From the sequence record MN850583.1: a DNA stretch of 42,507 nucleotides; one strand, written 5' to 3'. The notes under the pieces are model-generated. The model was not told where the DNA came from and did not search any database. It saw only the letters and a list, made by a program, of their open reading frames with translations. Positions 1 to 21,533 of this stretch are shown here, piece by piece. Both the position numbers and the translations under genes were made by a program. How positions within the stretch are numbered: position 1 is the first letter of the stretch; each line of letters opens with the position of its first letter. This stretch comes from Escherichia phage glasur.

Positions 1-23
1 TATCACTATAGTCACTTTCATAA
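1..23 (-). promoter_or_regulatory. Inverted exact copy of the 23-nt phage-promoter-like element (TTATGAAAGTGACTATAGTGATA on the minus strand), ending exactly at the window boundary
   Basis: Reverse complement of 1-23 is identical over 23 nt to 20845-20867. It matches the T7 promoter core ACTATAG in the same register. Orientation points out of the window. Confidence 0.45.
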
Positions 24-190: not shown

Positions 191-263
191 TCATCTCGCC
201 GGGTAGCAGAACATCGCTACACGGTGGCAAGACGGTAACACTGCTCTTTAACAATCTGGTGTG

Positions 264-292
264 TTGACAAGGCAAGCTCACTATGCTGTAAT
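264..292 (+). promoter_or_regulatory. Host sigma70-type early promoter (TTGACA-N17-TGTAAT, extended -10)
   Basis: Consensus -35 TTGACA at 264-269, 17-nt spacer, TGcTGTAAT with -10 at 287-292. Confidence 0.65.
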
Positions 293-400
293 GCTTCCAG
301 TCAGCCAGACAAGCCAAACAGTCATGGATAAAGACGTTAAAACCCTCGCAGGCTAACTGGTACGGTTTAATCATCTCAGAACGGGCGCTGATTAAAACGG

Positions 401-429
401 TTGACAGGATGAAACGAGTATGCTGTAAT
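401..429 (+). promoter_or_regulatory. Host sigma70-type early promoter (TTGACA-N17-TGTAAT, extended -10)
   Basis: TTGACA at 401-406, 17-nt spacer, TGcTGTAAT with -10 at 424-429. Confidence 0.65.
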
Positions 430-479
430 GCACACCAGATTGACAGGCAGCAAGCCAGTCAGTCAGAAGTAAAAAGTAG

Positions 480-6970: not shown

Positions 6971-6993
6971 TTATGAAGGTGACTATATTGGAC
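6971..6993 (+). promoter_or_regulatory. Phage-promoter-like element, variant copy (TTATGAAgGTGACTATAtTGgAc)
   Basis: 19/23 identical to the 20845-20867 element and contains GTGACTATA. Placed directly upstream of the first gene of the replication module. Confidence 0.5.
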
Positions 6994-8350: not shown

Positions 8351-9616
8351 GTGCTTGACAAGCTGTTGTTAACGGTGATGCGCGAGCGCGGGAAGTTCAA
8401 CTCCCTGCGACACGCCATCCCGGAAGATACGATGAGCCAGACCACGAGCTATATGCTCAAGGCTTACGGCTCATACTTTGATGCGTTCCCGGACAGTGAC
8501 TACATTGACATTGACACGCTGGGTACACACGTTCGTTTAAAGACAGGCAGCACGCCTGAACAGATGGCAGCCTTTGATTCGTTGTGCTCGCAGCTTCGAG
8601 AGTACAAGCCAACGAAGGAACAGAAGGAAGGTGTGCTTGACCAGCTCGTCGAGTTGGATACCGCTGGCCGTGCTAACCTGCTAATGCAGAGGTACGACAA
8701 TGGTGAGGAACTGGATATTATCTATGAGCTGGGCCGTCTTGCTGAGGGCGCACGTCGCAGCCGGGGGCAGTCATCTGTCACTGATTACGTGGACGATGAT
8801 GTGGTTGATATTCTCAACCGGACGGATGATAATCACGGCCTCAAGTTCGGTCTGCTCTGCTTGCAAGACAGCGTTCGCGTACTTCTACCCGGCGACTCCG
8901 TTGCCATCGGTGCTCGACCTGACAGCGGAAAGACTTCCTTCATCGCGTTTAACCTTACGCGAATGGCGGCGACAGCAGCGAAGCTCTATCCGGGCAGGCC
9001 AATCCTCTGGTTCAACAACGAGGGGCAGGGCATCAACATCATCCCGCGCATCTACCAAGCGGCGCTCAACTGCACGCTCCCGGAACTGAAAGAGCTGGGA
9101 GAGGACAGGGCTAAGCTGCACGCTGCGTATGCCAAAGCGCTGGGTGCGCCAGCCAACATCATCCGTGTGAAGGATATGCACGGCGCGTCGCTGGCGAAAG
9201 CTGAGCAGGTTATCGAAGCGATGAACCCATGCGTTGTGGTGTGGGATATGTTGGCGAACTTCAAGCTGTCTGTCTCCGATGCCAACAGCAACAAGGCGTC
9301 GCAGGTTGAGCAGCTATGGCAGGAGGTACGTGAGCTGGCCGTGCGCCACGACTTCGTATCAATGGCCACGGTGCAGGTATCAGCCGATGGCAAGGATGAT
9401 ATGTTCCCTGCGCTGGATGCACTCAAGGATTCCAAGACTGGTATCCAAGGTGCGACTGATGTTATCGTCATGCTCGGCAGCGTGGATGACCCATCGCTGG
9501 CAGCGCGGCGCGGCGTCAGCACTCCGAAGAACAAACGCCAGATTGCTGGGCGTCCATCCAACGTGCGGTCGCAGGTTCACTTCTTTGCTGACCGCTGCCA
9601 ATTTGAGGATATGTAA
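8351..9616 (+). CDS. DnaB-like replicative DNA helicase (T7 gp4 helicase-domain type)
   Basis: Walker A GARPDSGKTSF and Walker-B-like VVVWDM; 421 aa. GTG start with GGAGAG upstream. Confidence 0.75.
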   Translation: MLDKLLLTVMRERGKFNSLRHAIPEDTMSQTTSYMLKAYGSYFDAFPDSDYIDIDTLGTHVRLKTGSTPEQMAAFDSLCSQLREYKPTKEQKEGVLDQLVELDTAGRANLLMQRYDNGEELDIIYELGRLAEGARRSRGQSSVTDYVDDDVVDILNRTDDNHGLKFGLLCLQDSVRVLLPGDSVAIGARPDSGKTSFIAFNLTRMAATAAKLYPGRPILWFNNEGQGINIIPRIYQAALNCTLPELKELGEDRAKLHAAYAKALGAPANIIRVKDMHGASLAKAEQVIEAMNPCVVVWDMLANFKLSVSDANSNKASQVEQLWQEVRELAVRHDFVSMATVQVSADGKDDMFPALDALKDSKTGIQGATDVIVMLGSVDDPSLAARRGVSTPKNKRQIAGRPSNVRSQVHFFADRCQFEDM

Positions 9617-9960
9617 TGAGCGTGATTAAGGTAGGCGACCGAGTTCGTAACTGTGACACCAAGAGCATACACCATGGCGCGACTGGTACTGTGGTTGATA
9701 TCGACAGCAAGTGTATCAGCATCAAGCGTGATGATGGCTCTCGCGGTTCCGGTATCTATGGCTCGTGGACTGCACGGCCTGAGTGCTGGGAGCTGCTGGT
9801 TGAGGTGCCGGAGCCGACGACCACCGATGAGGACTGGAGCTACGCTGAGGCTGAGCGTCTGTATCAGGCAGCGTGTGATGCCATGGCCAAGTACAATCAG
9901 TACGTTGAGCGTAAGCCTACGACCAGCTACCTGCCCGGCAGCAAGCCGAGTAAGTGGTGA
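9616..9960 (+). CDS. Protein of unknown function (114 aa), possible KOW/SH3-like N-terminus
   Basis: ORF track. N-terminal KVGDRVR...GATGTVVDID pattern. Confidence 0.6.
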   Translation: MSVIKVGDRVRNCDTKSIHHGATGTVVDIDSKCISIKRDDGSRGSGIYGSWTARPECWELLVEVPEPTTTDEDWSYAEAERLYQAACDAMAKYNQYVERKPTTSYLPGSKPSKW

Positions 9961-10124
9961 AGGGGCGCAGCTATCGCCGTTGCTCTTGCGGTGGGTGCCT
10001 GCTGGTTGAGCAGGTCAAGGGCAAAGCCACTGGCAAACCGCTGGTGATTTATGAATGTGAGAAGTGTGGAGCGAAGCAGTATGGAAGACAAGGTGTATCG
10101 AGCAGCACCCTTAACCCAGCGTGA
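9957..10124 (+). CDS. Possible zinc-ribbon mini-protein (about 55 aa; CSCGGC ... CEKC)
   Basis: GTG-initiated ORF below the track cutoff with two CxxC-type pairs. Overlaps the next ORF in another frame, so it is uncertain. Confidence 0.3.
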   Translation: MKGRSYRRCSCGGCLLVEQVKGKATGKPLVIYECEKCGAKQYGRQGVSSSTLNPA

Positions 10125-16968: not shown

Positions 16969-17437
16969 CGGCACGCTGGCTGATGGCCGTTGGCGTCTGC
17001 ACCTGCTGCCTCCACCGGAGCGCAGGCATCTGGATGAAGCGTGGGCCGAGTTCAACTTGGCTGGCGCTGACGACCCAGCGTTTCAGGACACGATTGATAT
17101 TGTGAACGCACTGGCCCTCACGTATCGCATTATCATTCTGACCGGACGCGGGGCCGTGGCCCGTGAAGTAACCGAGCAGTGGCTCGACGATAATGGTGTG
17201 GTGTACGACAAGCTCATCATGCGTGAGATTGGCGACTGCCGCAAAGACACTGAGATGAAGCGTGCAGCGCTGGAAGACATTGGCATTGAGAACATCGTCT
17301 GTGCCTTTGATGACCTGCCGCACATCGTGGACTTTATGCGCAGCCTCGGCATCACAGTGTACGAAGTAACCCGGTATGAAGACAACCATGAGTATGTCCA
17401 TGCCAATGCAAAATACGATGGGGATAAAGATGAGTAA
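16934..17437 (+). CDS. HAD-superfamily phosphatase-like protein (167 aa)
   Basis: N-terminal VVVDLDGTLADG carries the HAD motif I DxDGT. ATG at 16934 with GGAGGAA upstream, inside track ORF 16790..17437. Confidence 0.55.
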   Translation: MHMKDTVVVDLDGTLADGRWRLHLLPPPERRHLDEAWAEFNLAGADDPAFQDTIDIVNALALTYRIIILTGRGAVAREVTEQWLDDNGVVYDKLIMREIGDCRKDTEMKRAALEDIGIENIVCAFDDLPHIVDFMRSLGITVYEVTRYEDNHEYVHANAKYDGDKDE

Positions 17438-17966
17438 ACGTGGCGACCACTTCTGCCTGTGCATCGAGCGCGACTACAAAGACGCGCTGCTTAATGAGCT
17501 GCGCGATGCTGGTGTAGTGCTGACATACGACGAGCCTTACGATGTGCCGAACGACAGTCGTGATTACTACACCTGCGTATACAATGGCAGTACCAAAGTG
17601 CTGGTGCTTGAACCATTCGAAGTGCAGGCCGTGGAGAAATCATTCATCCCGGTAGAGCCGGAAGCTGGGCCGGGCGGTATGAAGTATGACGGCGGTAAGC
17701 CACGCATGGCCCTGCTGCTCGACGGCTGCCCGAATGCACTGGAGGCTGTGGCCAGCGTGCTGACCTTCGGCGCTCAGAAGTACGCAGCTCACTCATGGCA
17801 GACTGTGCCGGAAGGTGAGGAACGTTACAAGTCAGCGCTGCTCCGGCACCTGACTGCGGTGGGTAAGGGTGAGGAACTCGACCCGGAATCTGGCCTGCAC
17901 CATCTGGCGCACGCTGCTTGCAATGCACTGTTCATTCTCGAACTGGCTTTAAGGAAAACTAAATGA
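17430..17966 (+). CDS. Putative MazG-like nucleotide pyrophosphohydrolase domain protein (178 aa)
   Basis: C-terminal half (KYDGGKPR...VLTFGAQKY...RYKSALLRHL...ESGLHHLAHAACNALFILE) resembles, from memory, the phage dATP/dGTP diphosphohydrolase (MazG-like) domain. N-terminal half is of unknown type. Confidence 0.45.
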   Translation: MSKRGDHFCLCIERDYKDALLNELRDAGVVLTYDEPYDVPNDSRDYYTCVYNGSTKVLVLEPFEVQAVEKSFIPVEPEAGPGGMKYDGGKPRMALLLDGCPNALEAVASVLTFGAQKYAAHSWQTVPEGEERYKSALLRHLTAVGKGEELDPESGLHHLAHAACNALFILELALRKTK

Positions 17967-18142
17967 CTGCTTTACTTTACGTGATTGCTCTGGCATGGTT
18001 TGTATACTTCACGCTGGCCTGCGTGAGCGCCTGTAAATCGTACAACCTAAGCCACTACCCGGAACGCGCTGGGTCTGCTGGCTTCGTGGTGTGGGTGCTG
18101 CTGGCTGTACTGCCAACGTGGTTCATTTGTTACTTGGCATAG
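17963..18142 (+). CDS. Small membrane protein (59 aa, two predicted transmembrane helices)
   Basis: Below the track cutoff. ATG with AAGGAAA upstream. Hydrophobic LLYVIALAWFVYFTLACV and FVVWVLLAVLPTWFICYLA. Confidence 0.5.
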   Translation: MTALLYVIALAWFVYFTLACVSACKSYNLSHYPERAGSAGFVVWVLLAVLPTWFICYLA

Positions 18143-18147
18143 GAGAT

Positions 18148-18384
18148 ATGATGAGCAGATACCAACGAGCCATTGAGGACACCGTGGTTGAGAAAGGTGT
18201 GTGCGGGGCGTGCCACGGCTGTGGCACATTCACCAGCATGACCATTCGACACGAGCTTGTCCAAACTGAATGTGAAGCCTGTGGTGGCACGGGCGTGACT
18301 GACCCGGCACTGCAACGCTCAGTGCTGCGGGAACAAGGTATGCGCTGCCAAGTGCAGCCGGGCTATGACCAACCAACGGAGTAA
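18148..18384 (+). CDS. Small zinc-finger protein with two DnaJ-type CxxCxGxG repeats (78 aa)
   Basis: CGACHGCG and CEACGGTG motifs. ATG with TAGGAGAT upstream, inside track ORF 18091..18384. Sits immediately upstream of the RNA polymerase gene. Confidence 0.6.
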   Translation: MMSRYQRAIEDTVVEKGVCGACHGCGTFTSMTIRHELVQTECEACGGTGVTDPALQRSVLREQGMRCQVQPGYDQPTE

Positions 18385-20819
18385 TGATGGACTTACTTGC
18401 TGAGCAGATTCGACTGGAAGAAGAAGCGCGAGCCAGACACCGCGAGGGCTGGCTGGATAATATCAGAGAGGCGTTGGCCGCTGGCCGGGCTGGTTCAGTA
18501 CCATTGCTCCAGCGTATGATGGTTGAGGCGTATCCTCAAGTTGAAGCTGCGATGCAAGAACTCCTGAATGAAACTGCCCGTGGTTATGGTGCGCAGTACC
18601 GGACATACATGCGTGAGCTGGGGCCGCGTGCCTGCGCCTCACTCGCATTGAGCATGGCTGTGTCTGGTGCTGCTGCTGAGCAGGCAGTGCTTAACTTGCT
18701 CAAGGATATGGGCAAGGCTCTGATGGCTGAGGTAGTGTACCTTCGGGCCAAGGCAGCCGGGCCTGTGCAGGCTGCTTACATGGCCAAGGTTAAGACTGAC
18801 GTTAAGCGCTCACGTTCCAAGTCAGCTAACCATGTGTACAACAAGGCGAAAGCGTCGGCGGCTAACGTTGGCGTTGAGCTGGATATCCTGCCGCAGCGTG
18901 CGCTCATCACCATTGGTAAGATGATGATGAAGTGCATTGAGCCTACTGGTCTGCTGGTCACTATGCGCGTTGGCGGCAACCACCGTCAGCGTGGCACTGC
19001 GCACTTCGCACTGCATGAAGATGTGCTGGCAACGATGAAAGATTGGATGGACTTGCCACGGGCAGACGGCCTGTGCTGTCCTCCAATGATTATCCCGCCA
19101 GCGCAGATTGCACGCGATGGTCGTAGCGGTATGTGGCACTCTCCGGGGCAGGCGGCCATGTACCGGGCAATCAGTCGCATGAATCACCGAGGCTATCGTG
19201 CGCTGGGTGTTGACCCACTGCCCATCATAGAGCCGTGTATGATGCTCAGCAGCGTTCCGTACCGAGTTAACCCAATGGTACTGGAGTTCCTGAGAACGAA
19301 CCGTACAGGCGTTATGGGGCTGCCTGTGCCACCGCGTGAGCCTAAGCTCCCGTTCACTATCCCGGCAGGCGTCAGCTTCGCACAGTACATTAGCAAGTTC
19401 CCACCCGAAATGCAGCAGCAGATGGAGTCGGAAGCGCACGAGTACAAGGTGAAGACCCGTCTGTATTACAACGAGCTGCGCAAGTTCACGTCACAGATGC
19501 TGGCGCTGAACGGTGCAGTCAAAGAGGCCGAGCGCTATGCGCCATACGATAGGGTATATCTCCCGACTTACGCCGATACGCGGGGCCGAATTTATTATTC
19601 TTCGACCCTTAACCCTCAGTCCATCGACGCGGTGCGAGCGCTGCTCGAACTTGCTGAACCAGTGGCTCTCGGAAGTGAGGGGCTGTTCTGGCTCAAGGTA
19701 CATGTTGCGAATTGTTTTGGATACGACGCCACAGACTTCGACGACCGGGCAGCGTGGACGGACAAAACACTCCCCAGACTACGTGAGGCGTGCCGTCTTC
19801 CAGAGGCATTTGATTCGTTCTGGTCAGAAGCCGATAGCCCTATCTCAGCGTGGGCTGCTGCTGTTGAACTCATTCGAGCTATCGACTCAGGAAGTCCTGA
19901 GACTTATCCCTGCCGAGTGGTTACGCAGTGGGACGCTACATGTTCAGGACTCCAGCACCTCAGTGCGATGCTACGAGATGAGGTTGGCGGTGCTGCTGTC
20001 AATCTTGTCGATAGCGTGGGAAGAAAAGCAGACATATATCTCAAGACGGCAGCAGCGGCGATGCAGGCTCTTGAAGAAAGTGAAGCGGCTGCGCCGACGA
20101 CAATGGGTTCGTGGCTTGTTTCCATCGGCATTGTTCGGGCTATGGCCAAGAAGCCAGTGATGACCTACGTGTATGGGGCAACCCGGCACGGCATGGTTGA
20201 TTACTACTGCCTGTACCTGCGCGAGAACCGGGTCAAGCTGCCGGAGGGCAAGAGCCTGCTGGAGTGTGCTCAGTTCATTGCTGAGTTTATGTGGGCTGCT
20301 ATCCCTCGCGTCGTGCCGAAAGCTGCTGAGCTTATGGCATGGTTGCAGGCTATCGCAGTAGAGGCTGCGAGCATGGGTGAGTACGTGGAGTTCACTGCGC
20401 CGTCAGGTCTGCGTGTGGTCAATCTGTATCAGGCCAGCAAAGAGATTGCGCTGAACAACATCAACCTCATGGGTATCCACGGCATCAAGCTGCGCGAGTA
20501 TCTGGATAAGCCAGACGGTCGCAAGTGTGCCGCTGCGATTGCTCCGAATTTTGTACACGCTATGGATGCCAGTCACATGATGAAGGTTCTGTGGGAGATG
20601 TGGAATAACGGGGTATACATGGTATCCATCCACGACTCGTTCGGTGTAGCGGCAGCTCATGCCGGGCTACTGCACAAGGTCATACGTGAAAAGTTTGTGC
20701 AGATGTATGAGGAATGCGACCCTATTCAGCAACTTGCGTCAGCATATAACCGTGAAGCTCCAGCTCGCGGTAATCTGGACATCCAGCTTGTGAAGAAATC
20801 AAGCAAGTTCTTCTGCTGA
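18384..20819 (+). CDS. Single-subunit DNA-dependent RNA polymerase (T7 RNAP family)
   Basis: 811 aa. [29 protein letters not shown] matches the T7 RNAP [20 protein letters not shown] region, and VSIHDSFG matches catalytic motif C. Located at the end of the DNA metabolism module. Confidence 0.93.
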   Translation: [811 protein letters not shown]

Positions 20820-20844
20820 TTAAAGCATTGTATTCCTTGCTTAT

Positions 20845-20867
20845 TTATGAAAGTGACTATAGTGATA
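20845..20867 (+). promoter_or_regulatory. Phage RNAP promoter-like element TTATGAAAGTGACTATAGTGATA (reference copy)
   Basis: 16/23 identical to the T7 promoter TAATACGACTCACTATAGGGAGA in the same register, including ACTATAG at -7 to +1. Lies between the RNA polymerase gene and the structural module. Predicted +1 is the G at 20862. Confidence 0.6.
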
Positions 20868-20926
20868 GAATCACGCTACCGGTAGCCCCGTCAGTGGCGG
20901 GGGTGCTGCCACTCAGAGAGGATTGT

Positions 20927-21112
20927 ATGGGTAAAGAATCTCCATTAGATAGAGTAACATTCACTAAAGCTCAGTTAGCTCTACTGGAAAAGCACTTCGG
21001 TACATGGGTACAGGTAGGCAGAACAGTAACACCTGACACTAACCTTCCTCTCATTAACAGAGAAGCTGGTAAGCAGGATGTACTGGACTTCATCCGTGAA
21101 AGAGTGATTTGA
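20927..21112 (+). CDS. Small protein of unknown function (61 aa) with atypical AT-rich codon usage; moron-like
   Basis: ATG at 20927 with GAGAGGA upstream, inside track ORF 20828..21112. Uses AGA Arg and TTA Leu codons and is visibly more AT-rich than neighbouring genes. Flanked by copies of the promoter-like element. Confidence 0.55.
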   Translation: MGKESPLDRVTFTKAQLALLEKHFGTWVQVGRTVTPDTNLPLINREAGKQDVLDFIRERVI

Positions 21113-21134
21113 AATGAAAGTGACTATTATGGGA
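21112..21134 (+). promoter_or_regulatory. Phage-promoter-like element, divergent copy (aaATGAAAGTGACTATtaTGggA) overlapping the start codon of the next gene
   Basis: 14-nt core ATGAAAGTGACTAT is identical to the reference copy, but -1 and +1 differ (T and A instead of A and G), so function is doubtful. Confidence 0.3.
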
Positions 21135-21533
21135 AATACAACGCACACGACTATGCCTCTTGACATTCGGCGTGCGGTGGCCGAGGGCATACAAGCCGAG
21201 CGGCCTTGGTCAGACCTATCTCCCGATGTGATAGTCGAACGCATGTACGAGGCTACTGCCGCTGGTTGCGTTGACGTTTACATTACTGCTGACGACGATG
21301 GCCTCATGGCCGTTGCTCACATCGGCAGGTTATTCGATATTCATGTGGGCGAGATGGTGGTCGTTATGGCCTCATACGTCTGGCCCCAGTACAGAAACCG
21401 TGGAGTGATGCGTGCCATCCTCCGTGTACTCAAAGACGTGGCCCGTTCCGAGGGTGTACGTTGGTGCGGTTACTCCCACATGGTGCGGCCTTACGTTCAG
21501 GAGTACCGCTTCATAGATTTGGAGAAACCGTAA
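21114..21533 (+). CDS. Protein of unknown function (139 aa); weak GNAT-acetyltransferase-like motif
   Basis: ORF track. QYRNRGVMRAIL loosely resembles the acetyl-CoA-binding motif A. Start codon lies inside the promoter-like repeat, so the start is uncertain. Confidence 0.55.
   Translation: MKVTIMGNTTHTTMPLDIRRAVAEGIQAERPWSDLSPDVIVERMYEATAAGCVDVYITADDDGLMAVAHIGRLFDIHVGEMVVVMASYVWPQYRNRGVMRAILRVLKDVARSEGVRWCGYSHMVRPYVQEYRFIDLEKP

What the first reader, a model, noticed from the sequence alone, without database searches (positions are those of the whole stretch)
18148..18384. DnaJ-type zinc-finger mini-protein immediately upstream of the RNAP gene, and other small zinc-ribbon ORFs
The 78-aa protein has two CxxCxGxG repeats (CGACHGCG, CEACGGTG) typical of DnaJ cysteine-rich domains and is translationally coupled to the RNAP gene. 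A second possible zinc ribbon (9957-10124, CSCGGC...CEKC) overlaps neighbouring genes. Small zinc-binding proteins in T7-like phages often act as host-takeover factors, for example inhibitors of host RNAP or other enzymes.
Basis: inference. Interest (0 to 1): 0.4.

Follow-up and report, generated by a model that had tools for sequence, protein, structure and literature searches.

The report
Zinc-ribbon mini-protein before phage RNA polymerase

Summary
ORF 18148/18151-18384 is a genuine gene under purifying selection. Its two CxxCxGxG motifs are the only two in the window's whole six-frame translation. The four metal-ligand cysteines are invariant across the family; the extra Cys and His of the first motif are not. 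The window is a Bonnellvirus, probably Escherichia phage glasur.

The family is tiny: 8 clusters among 1.84 billion representatives. Every member lies 0-13 nt upstream of a phiKMV-type single-subunit RNA polymerase (RNAP) gene and carries that gene's Shine-Dalgarno sequence in its last codons.

It is not a DnaJ, a Q antiterminator or a Gp2 homologue. It shares only one zinc hairpin with DnaJ zinc centre II and with the lambda Q "arm". The RefSeq label "anti-termination protein Q-like" rests on that hairpin alone.

In phiKMV the same slot holds Gp25.1, the tested Gp2-like host-RNAP inhibitor, and this window has no detectable Gp2 homologue. My best guess (about 0.35) is an acidic, non-homologous host-RNAP shut-off factor made together with the phage RNAP. 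A phage-RNAP partner is the main rival (about 0.25). Nothing here tests binding.

The second ORF (9954/9957-10124) is also a real, often unannotated gene, but its zinc ribbon is only partly conserved.

The parts
18151..18384 (+). Zinc-ribbon mini-protein gene. It encodes 77 aa from ATG 18151, or 78 aa if ATG 18148 is used. Member of PHROG 6060.
   Evidence: ORF and sequence. dN/dS 0.07-0.39. PHROG 6060, E=1.5e-13, full length. Homologue in 21/21 related phage records.
18142..18145 (+). GGAG Shine-Dalgarno for the mini-protein. It overlaps the TAG stop (18140-18142) of the upstream 59-aa ORF.
   Evidence: Read directly from the sequence.
18202..18225 (+). First zinc knuckle, CGACHGCG (CxxCxGxG). 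C19, C22, G24 and G26 are invariant in the family; H23 and C25 are not.
18271..18294 (+). Second zinc knuckle, CEACGGTG (CxxCxGxG). C42, C45, G46, G47, T48 and G49 are invariant.
   Evidence: hhalign to the lambda Q arm, residues 113-154, probability 82%.
18304..18381 (+). C-terminal module: a predicted helix (residues 53-69) followed by QPGYDQPTE. L55, V59, G64, R66, P71 and Y73 are invariant or nearly so. This part is family-specific.
   Evidence: AF2 model, helix 53-69. Conservation. A zinc-less 50-aa ORF in the same slot of locus L025 matches residues 54-78, hhalign 77%.
18378..18389 (+). Junction with the RNAP gene: GGAG (18378-18381, RNAP Shine-Dalgarno inside the last codons), TAA stop (18382-18384), and ATG 18384 / ATG 18387.
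   Evidence: The same arrangement occurs in 12 relatives, with stop-to-start distances of 0 to 13 nt.
18387..20819 (+). Single-subunit, phiKMV-type phage RNA polymerase gene (810 aa from ATG 18387, 811 aa from ATG 18384). It is always the immediate downstream neighbour.
   Evidence: PF00940 on the neighbours. Annotations in relatives.
17376..17966 (+). dATP/dGTP diphosphohydrolase-like gene. It is the upstream landmark of the slot and corresponds to phiKMV gp25.
   Evidence: PF18909, E=4e-34. phiKMV gp25 annotation.
17963..18142 (+). Variable 59-aa hydrophobic ORF between the landmark gene and the mini-protein. Present in only some relatives.
   Evidence: No family hit.
9957..10124 (+). Second small Cys-rich ORF (55-56 aa; GTG 9954 or 9957, the latter overlapping the upstream stop as GTGA). 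It is basic and has CxC...CxxC. Its last 44 nt overlap the next gene, which starts at 10081.
   Evidence: AF2 model with four strands, pLDDT 66. Annotated in ROV85, Lidtsur and Kc261; missing from the J8-65, LIMEzero, megetsur, altidsur and RZ4 annotations.

Best explanation
The gene encodes a small acidic protein with two parts. The N-terminal part is a single Cys4 zinc ribbon built from two DnaJ-type CxxCxGxG knuckles. The C-terminal part is a family-specific helix followed by a PGY(D/S)xP tail. It is expressed from the same transcript as the phage's single-subunit RNA polymerase, probably with coupled translation.

My preferred mechanism is that it binds the host multisubunit RNA polymerase and shuts it down at the moment the phage polymerase appears. 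That would make it a non-homologous functional replacement for T7 Gp2 / phiKMV Gp25.1.

Shown here: the gene is real and under selection; the motif and the four Cys are invariant; adjacency to the RNAP gene is strict; the slot is the same as that of phiKMV Gp25.1; there is no homology to Gp2; the zinc hairpin is of the lambda Q arm type.

Inferred: zinc binding, translational coupling, host RNAP as the target, and inhibition.
For: (1) Slot equivalence. In phiKMV the 48-aa Gp25.1 lies between the dGTP pyrophosphohydrolase-like gp25 and RNAP gp26. [quoted passage not shown] The mini-protein occupies the same position between the PF18909 gene and the RNAP gene.
(2) The niche looks vacant. No Gp2 or Gp25.1 homologue exists in any frame of the window (best E=0.5). 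None of 20 early ORFs, nor the ORFs flanking the RNAP gene, hits an RNAP-inhibitor PHROG, whereas Gp25.1 hits phrog_1307.
(3) Strict linkage. All 21 isolates and every member looked up on metagenomic or assembly contigs, including the two most distant members, have the gene 0-13 nt before an RNAP gene of about 810 aa.
(4) Charge. The family is acidic, pI 4.6-6.7 and net charge 0 to -8, like Gp2 (pI 4.6) and Gp25.1 (pI 4.8). That fits a protein-binding role better than a DNA-binding one.
(5) Zinc hairpin. It aligns with the lambda Q arm at 82% hhalign probability. In the Q-loading complex that arm contacts the RNAP beta' zinc-binding domain (PMC9388147).
(6) Modular parallel. A zinc-less ORF in the same slot of a distant phage keeps only the C-terminal module. 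This resembles the Gp2-like proteins, whose variable N-terminal extensions precede a conserved C-terminal part.
Against: There is no direct evidence of any interaction. The slot argument is weak on its own: in 64 phiKMV-like loci the slot holds at least four unrelated small-protein families, most of unknown function.

The phage also carries a Rac-like GNAT at 21114-21533; the LIMEzero counterpart of this gene is listed as a Rac homologue in PMC7552054. That gene could cover host-RNAP shut-off by itself.

There is no sequence similarity to Gp2 (hhalign 0.1%) and no significant structural match to anything in the libraries searched. The similarity to the Q arm is largely carried by the metal-binding scaffold. 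A Gp2 homologue too diverged for HMMER cannot be excluded.
Confidence: 0.35

Rival explanations
1. It is a partner of the phage's own RNA polymerase: an assembly or folding helper, or a regulator, made in fixed ratio with the enzyme through coupled translation.
For: Adjacency to the RNAP gene is invariant, and the RNAP ribosome-binding site is embedded in its last codons. The family occurs only with one RNAP clade, 69% identity or more to this RNAP where measured. DnaJ-type zinc centres bind client polypeptides (established knowledge of DnaJ, not tested here). HMO-2011-type phages carry the same two-repeat module inserted in their DNA polymerase (PMC9038755), which shows an affinity of this module for phage polymerases.
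Against: In the loci surveyed, related phiKMV-type RNAP genes outside this clade are not accompanied by any such protein. The one tested occupant of the slot (Gp25.1) targets host RNAP, not the phage enzyme. Tight gene linkage is equally expected for a factor that merely needs the same timing.
Confidence: 0.25
2. It is a host-takeover factor aimed at another host protein, for example a mimic of DnaJ zinc centre II that engages DnaK, or an anti-TRAP-like plug for some host regulator.
For: It has exact DnaJ-type motifs, and the profile aligns with the DnaJ zinc centre II hairpin (1exk residues 29-62) and with Ydj1. The best NCBIfam hit, far below threshold, is anti-TRAP RtpA. Anti-TRAP is a 53-aa stand-alone two-knuckle zinc protein solved in complex with TRAP (2zp8/2zp9); that it carries a C-terminal helix and acts purely by binding TRAP is from my own knowledge.
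Against: All these matches are below threshold and confined to the Cys/Gly scaffold: Pfam 15.7 bits against 32.7, RtpA 15.2 against 65, hhalign 26%. Nothing explains the strict RNAP linkage.
Confidence: 0.15
3. It is a nucleic-acid-binding regulator. It would either repress early sigma70 promoters by binding DNA or act on the RNAP mRNA.
For: The lambda Q arm, the closest module, contacts the DNA major groove at the QBE through residues next to the zinc ligands (PMC9388147). Zinc-finger segments of UvrA chains also match weakly.
Against: The protein is acidic in almost every member. It has no basic patch apart from single conserved Arg residues and no HTH.
Confidence: 0.1
4. It is a Q-like transcription antiterminator, as the RefSeq/PHROG label says.
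For: PHROG 6060 is labelled 'anti-termination protein Q-like'. hhalign to lambda Q gives 82%.
Against: The match covers only 39 of Q's 207 residues, namely the zinc ribbon. The four-helix body with its HTH, the N-terminal nozzle-forming segment and the flap-tip-helix contacts that define Q function (PMC9388147) have no counterpart in a 77-aa protein. There is no hit to Pfam Antiterm PF03589, which lambda Q hits at 6e-58. PHROG 6060 is this family itself (profile 61 positions, full-length match), so its label is not independent evidence. By analogy with phiKMV (PMC7552054), late genes here are presumably read by the phage's own RNAP.
Confidence: 0.03

Closest known systems
DnaJ/Hsp40 cysteine-rich domain (Pfam PF00684), specifically zinc centre II formed by repeats 2 and 3
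   Same: There are two exact CxxCxGxG repeats separated by a short beta-hairpin. The profile aligns to E. coli DnaJ 29-62 and Ydj1 55-91.
   Different: It has only two repeats (one metal site) instead of four. It has no J domain, G/F region or C-terminal client-binding domains. The score is half the Pfam cut-off. It has an unrelated C-terminal helix and PGY tail.
Lambda Q antiterminator 'arm' (zinc ribbon, residues 114-152; PDB 4mo1, 7ubj-7ubn)
   Same: It has the same CxxCxGxG...CxxCxGxG hairpin, with hhalign 82% over 39 columns. Lambda Q itself hits the DnaJ model below threshold over the same profile region. It is phage-encoded and transcription-related.
   Different: It lacks the Q body, HTH, N-terminal torus and flap-tip contacts. 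It is 77 aa against 207 aa, and acidic.
T7 Gp2 / phiKMV Gp25.1 host-RNAP inhibitors (Pfam PF16857, PHROG 1307)
   Same: Comparable size (48-64 aa against 77), acidic charge, and the identical genomic slot to Gp25.1, directly upstream of the phage RNAP gene and after the dGTP pyrophosphohydrolase-like gene.
   Different: No sequence relationship (hhalign 0.1%). Gp2 has no Cys motif or metal site. The predicted order of secondary-structure elements in the mini-protein, helix-strand-strand-strand-helix, is not the Gp2 fold as I recall it.
Anti-TRAP (RtpA) of Bacillus subtilis (PDB 2bx9, 2zp8)
   Same: It is a stand-alone mini-protein with a single zinc site built from two DnaJ-like knuckles, followed by a C-terminal helix. 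It works purely as a protein-binding inhibitor. It is the best (weak) NCBIfam hit.
   Different: The score is far below the family cut-off (15.2 bits against 65) and hhalign gives only 26%. The spacer between knuckles is 15 residues here against about 9. Anti-TRAP's oligomerisation and TRAP-binding residues are not recognisable.
Partial DnaJ central domain inserted in HMO-2011-type phage DNA polymerases
   Same: It is the same two-repeat CXXCXGXG half-domain, used by a phage next to or inside a polymerase (PMC9038755).
   Different: There it is an internal insertion in a DNA polymerase. Here it is a separate protein next to an RNA polymerase gene. Homology was not tested.

Membership tests
PHROG 6060 (the family itself; labelled 'anti-termination protein Q-like') | Full-length match to the family profile | tested here: met
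   E=1.5e-13; residues 2-64 match profile positions 1-61 of 61. Membership says nothing about function, because the label is inferred.
DnaJ central cysteine-rich domain (PF00684) | Score at or above the Pfam gathering threshold | tested here: not met
   15.7 bits against a cut-off of 32.7, E=0.018.
DnaJ central cysteine-rich domain (PF00684) | Four CxxCxGxG repeats forming two zinc centres | tested here: not met
   There are only two repeats in the protein, and only two in the whole window.
DnaJ central cysteine-rich domain (PF00684) | Exact CxxCxGxG motif with conserved Cys and Gly | tested here: met
   C19, C22, G24, G26 and C42, C45, G47, G49 are invariant in 17-18 sequences.
DnaJ/Hsp40 co-chaperone | J domain with HPD motif | tested here: not met
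   No J-domain hit, and a 77-aa protein has no room for one.
Lambda-type Q antiterminator (PF03589) | Match to the Antiterm model covering the zinc ribbon plus the C-terminal body | tested here: not met
   No PF03589 hit at E<=1. Lambda Q scores 6e-58.
Lambda-type Q antiterminator (PF03589) | Zinc-ribbon arm | tested here: met
   hhalign 82%; residues 14-52 align with Q 113-154.
Lambda-type Q antiterminator (PF03589) | Four-helix body with HTH that binds the QBE, and the N-terminal segment that forms the exit-channel nozzle | tested here: not met
   The alignment stops at the arm. The model has only one short and one 17-residue helix.
Lambda-type Q antiterminator (PF03589) | Antitermination activity at a late promoter with a sigma-dependent pause | not testable with these tools
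   This needs in vivo or in vitro transcription assays.
Gp2-type host RNAP inhibitor (PF16857 / PHROG 1307) | Sequence homology to Gp2 or Gp25.1 | tested here: not met
   hhalign 0.1%. No PF16857 or PHROG 1307 hit. Gp25.1 does hit both.
Gp2-type host RNAP inhibitor (PF16857 / PHROG 1307) | Gene directly upstream of the phage RNAP gene in phiKMV-like genomes | tested here: met
   literature.
Gp2-type host RNAP inhibitor (PF16857 / PHROG 1307) | Binds the beta' jaw and inhibits the sigma70 holoenzyme | not testable with these tools
   This needs biochemistry or genetics.
Anti-TRAP RtpA (NCBIfam NF058604) | Score at or above the equivalog cut-off | tested here: not met
   15.2 bits against 65; hhalign 26%.
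Zinc ribbon in general (second ORF, 9957-10124) | Four conserved metal ligands on two knuckles flanking beta-hairpins | tested here: inconclusive
   C10, C12, C35 and C38 are conserved in Bonnellvirus, but LIMEzero keeps only three Cys. The AF2 model has four strands but pLDDT 66 from three sequences. No family hit is significant.

The most novel reading that the evidence does not exclude
The mini-protein would be the founding member of a new class of host-RNAP inhibitors unrelated to Gp2. [quoted passage not shown] If so, the slot upstream of the phage RNAP gene in phiKMV-like phages would be a general 'switch-factor' locus, filled by several unrelated inhibitor families: PHROG 6060, 1307, 16324 and 1312.
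Probability: 0.2. Interest if true: 0.6.

Novelty: new variant of a known kind. Interest (0 to 1): 0.35.

Why it matters
How phiKMV-type phages of enterobacteria switch off host transcription is not known, because no Gp2 homologue is detectable in them. This protein is the best-placed candidate and its host is E. coli K-12, so the question can be tested directly with standard RNAP tools.

If it binds host RNAP, it adds a zinc-ribbon class to the small set of phage RNAP inhibitors. It would also show that the gene slot before the phage RNAP is a predictive marker for such factors. If instead it binds the phage RNAP, it would be the first accessory factor for a phiKMV-type single-subunit polymerase, which matters for using these enzymes as tools.

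The work also corrects a propagating database label ("anti-termination protein Q-like") that rests on a 39-residue metal-binding hairpin. It also shows that a second small gene is missing from many annotations.

Tried and rejected

PDB sequence and profile searches gave only non-significant scaffold matches: UvrA, DnaJ, Ydj1, lambda Q and cytochrome c5.

The word-indexed search with the single sequence found only 3 near-identical proteins. The profile search and the exhaustive search were needed to reach the full family, and they show it is tiny.

Homology to Gp2 or Gp25.1 is rejected. Membership in DnaJ, Q or anti-TRAP is rejected.

Programmed frameshift or read-through fusing the mini-protein to the RNAP is rejected. 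The junction spacing and frame relation vary among relatives, and each has its own Shine-Dalgarno sequence and start codon.

No sigma70-like promoter or intrinsic terminator separates the gene from its neighbours; counts were at or below shuffled expectation.

Literature searches for LIMEzero, Bonnellvirus, Gp25.1 and CXXCXGXG+phage found no functional study of this protein.

A candidate phage promoter motif after the RNAP gene is shared exactly only with forsur among the fetched loci, so I did not build on it.

Complex prediction with host or phage RNAP could not be run, because the structure tool takes single chains made only of window or search-derived sequences.

Full report
**Context.** The window is a complete phage genome of the genus Bonnellvirus, with a phiKMV-like gene layout. 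The tested stretch 17000-21000 is 95.7% identical to Escherichia phage forsur and 76-91% identical to the other bonnellviruses. Its length of 42,507 bp equals that listed for Escherichia phage glasur, MN850583 (PMC7552041). This identification rests on length and similarity only. All genes read on the + strand.

- The ORF runs from ATG 18148 or ATG 18151 to TAA 18382-18384.
- Its product contains CGACHGCG and CEACGGTG. These are the only two CxxCxGxG motifs in the complete six-frame translation of the window.
- It is a gene. Against ten relatives with measurable dS, dN/dS is 0.07-0.39, and synonymous sites are near or at saturation against all relatives except the near-identical forsur.
- tblastn finds a homologue in all 21 related phage records.
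- Homologues begin MSRYQ, and ATG 18151 is 5 nt from GGAG 18142-18145. The real product is therefore probably 77 aa.
- The RNAP most likely starts at ATG 18387 (MDLLAEQ, as in relatives).
- In every relative the last codons of the mini-gene (..GGAG/AGGAG/GGGAG + TAA/TAG) form the RNAP Shine-Dalgarno, and the RNAP start lies 0-13 nt beyond the stop. Translational coupling is plausible but not shown.

**Anatomy.**
- Alignments of 10-18 sequences show invariant C19, C22, G24, G26 and C42, C45, G46, G47, T48, G49. The third Cys and the His of the first motif in this window are not conserved.
- Downstream of the hairpin comes a family-specific segment, LQRxVLxDLGxRxxxQPGYxxP, with R66, P71 and Y73 invariant.
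- AlphaFold2 (17 sequences, pLDDT 72) predicts a short helix, three strands carrying the two knuckles, and a helix at residues 53-69.
- The proteins are acidic, pI 4.6-6.7.

**How big is the family and where does it live?**
- An exhaustive HMMER scan of 1.84 billion cluster representatives found six clusters below 1e-10. It also found two more distant full-length members, P0021 and P0023. Everything else was a motif-level match to multi-repeat CxxCxGxG proteins.
- Every member I could place lies immediately upstream of a single-subunit RNAP gene of about 810 aa. In nearly all, a dGTP-diphosphohydrolase-like gene lies just before it; one short contig, L016, is cut off there.
- In a survey of 64 phiKMV-like RNAP loci, the family occurs only with RNAPs at least 70% identical to this one. 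The distant member P0023 sits beside a 69%-identical RNAP.

**What it is not.**
- DnaJ: the Pfam model scores 15.7 bits against a cut-off of 32.7. There are two repeats rather than four, and there is no J domain.
- Q antiterminator: RefSeq and pharokka-style annotations call relatives "anti-termination protein Q-like" because PHROG 6060 carries that label. PHROG 6060 is this family itself.
  - hhalign to lambda Q gives 82% probability, but only for residues 14-52 against Q 113-154, the zinc-ribbon "arm".
  - Lambda Q's arm itself hits the DnaJ model below threshold.
  - The Q body, the HTH and the nozzle-forming N-terminus (PMC9388147) have no counterpart here, and Pfam Antiterm does not match.
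- Gp2: hhalign probability is 0.1%.
- Anti-TRAP, the best NCBIfam hit, scores far below threshold, and hhalign gives 26%.
- Fold searches returned nothing meaningful.

**What the surroundings say.**
- In phiKMV the gene directly upstream of the phage RNAP encodes Gp25.1, a Gp2-like protein shown to bind beta' and inactivate host transcription (PMC7552054; PMC5537680 citing Klimuk et al. 2013).
- I located Gp25.1 (48 aa) between gp25, a dATP/dGTP pyrophosphohydrolase, and gp26, the RNAP. This is exactly the slot of the zinc mini-protein.
- The window has no detectable Gp2 homologue in any frame. No early ORF and no ORF flanking the RNAP gene matches an RNAP-inhibitor PHROG.
- The slot is a hot spot. 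Across the 64 loci it holds the zinc family, Gp2-like proteins with or without N-terminal extensions, PHROG 16324, PHROG 1312 and others.
- In locus L025 (RNAP 38% identical) the slot holds a 50-aa zinc-less ORF. Its residues 18-42 match the C-terminal 25 residues of the zinc family (hhalign 77%, 40% identity). This suggests a two-module protein in which the C-terminal module is the slot-specific part.

**Most likely mechanism.** I commit, at about 0.35, to a host-RNAP shut-off factor that is analogous but not homologous to Gp2/Gp25.1 and is produced together with the phage RNAP.
- Supporting points are the slot equivalence, the vacant niche, the acidic character, and the Q-arm-type hairpin. 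In the Q-loading complex that hairpin contacts the beta' zinc-binding domain.
- Against it: nothing tests binding. The slot also hosts families of unknown function. The phage has a Rac-like GNAT just downstream (21114-21533; PF00583 22.5 bits). LIMEzero ORF36, listed as a Rac homologue in PMC7552054, sits at the equivalent position after the RNAP gene, and Rac might suffice for shut-off.
- Rivals:
  - a partner or chaperone of the phage RNAP, favoured by the strict linkage and clade restriction (0.25);
  - another host target such as DnaK, acting in an anti-TRAP-like way (0.15);
  - a nucleic-acid-binding regulator, disfavoured by the acidity (0.1);
  - a true Q-like antiterminator, rejected on architecture (0.03).

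**The second ORF.** ORF 9954/9957-10124 is also a real gene.
- In the stretch not overlapped by neighbours, pN/pS is 0.09-0.30 in its own frame and 0.9-4.7 in the other two. Substitutions concentrate at its third codon positions, 46 against 14 and 11.
- tblastn finds it in 20 of 21 relatives. In LIMEzero it lies largely in an unannotated gap. Many records do not annotate it.
- The start GTG 9957 overlaps the upstream stop as GTGA.
- The product is basic (pI 9.5). C10, C12, C35 and C38 are conserved within Bonnellvirus, but LIMEzero keeps only three Cys.
- A shallow AF2 model shows a four-stranded, ribbon-like fold at pLDDT 66.
- There are no homologues outside the clade. 'Zinc ribbon' is possible but not established.

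**Novelty and verdict.** The ORF has been in databases since LIMEzero (2011) as a hypothetical protein. I found no functional study. The module is a known kind: a stand-alone or embedded two-repeat DnaJ-type zinc hairpin, as in anti-TRAP, the lambda Q arm and the HMO-2011 DNA polymerase insertion. Three things are new: its combination with a family-specific C-terminal module, its obligate position before a phage RNAP gene, and its coincidence with the Gp2 slot. I rate it a new variant of a known kind, of moderate interest (0.35). It is a well-defined, easily testable candidate rather than a surprise.

Noticed in passing
window 21114-21533 (+): A GNAT acetyltransferase gene lies two genes after the RNAP gene (PF00583, 22.5 bits against a cut-off of 20.7). 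It is in the position of Rac, the phiKMV-group protein that triggers cleavage of the host RNAP alpha subunit. LIMEzero ORF36, at the equivalent position, is listed as a Rac homologue in PMC7552054. This gives the phage a second possible host-RNAP shut-off route.
   Followed up: partly
window 20850-20865 (+); also 3-18 (-), 6976-6991 (+), 8493-8508 (+), 21117-21132 (+): The motif AAAGTGACTATAGTGA lies just after the RNAP stop codon, with an exact inverted copy at the left genome end and three 3-mismatch copies. That is 5 matches against 0.15 expected. It resembles a T7-type promoter core (ACTATAG) and may be a phage-RNAP promoter. Among the fetched loci only forsur shares the exact 12-mer.
   Followed up: partly
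window 263-294 and 400-431 (+): A repeated element GTTGACA...TGCTGTAATGC looks like a pair of strong sigma70 early promoters with an extended -10 region, at the left end of the genome (family D14).
   Followed up: no
window 17963-18142 (+): A 59-aa hydrophobic ORF is wedged between the dGTP-diphosphohydrolase-like gene and the zinc mini-gene. It is present in forsur, aldrigsur, megetsur and one metagenomic contig, and absent in J8-65, Lidtsur and LIMEzero. It has no family hit.
   Followed up: partly
loci L019-L095 (slot directly upstream of the RNAP gene): Across 64 phiKMV-like RNAP loci, the slot in front of the RNAP gene holds at least four unrelated small-protein families: PHROG 6060 (zinc), Gp2-like PHROG 1307/18213, PHROG 16324 and PHROG 1312. 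Only the Gp2-like family has been characterised. The slot may be a general locus for transcription-switch factors.
   Followed up: partly
L025 2315-2467 (+): A 50-aa ORF without zinc knuckles lies in the same slot of a phage whose RNAP is 38% identical. It matches only the C-terminal 25 residues of the zinc family (..ELDIRCKRCPGYDQP..; hhalign 77%). This suggests that the C-terminal module can stand alone.
   Followed up: partly
window 9957-10124 (+) and the equivalent positions in J8-65, LIMEzero, megetsur, altidsur and RZ4: The second small ORF is under purifying selection but is missing from the annotation of several related genomes. In LIMEzero it lies largely in an unannotated 126-nt gap between ORF19 and ORF20.
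   Followed up: yes
window 18202-18213 compared with forsur L002: In phage forsur the first knuckle reads CGEC instead of CGAC. This is the only amino-acid difference from this window's protein, and it lies between the two ligand cysteines.
   Followed up: no
window 17376-17966 (+): PHROGs matching the dGTP-diphosphohydrolase-like gene include two labelled 'endolysin; inhibits RNA polymerase' (phrog_5033, phrog_2252). This label does not fit the Pfam assignment (PF18909) and looks like another propagated mis-annotation.
   Followed up: no
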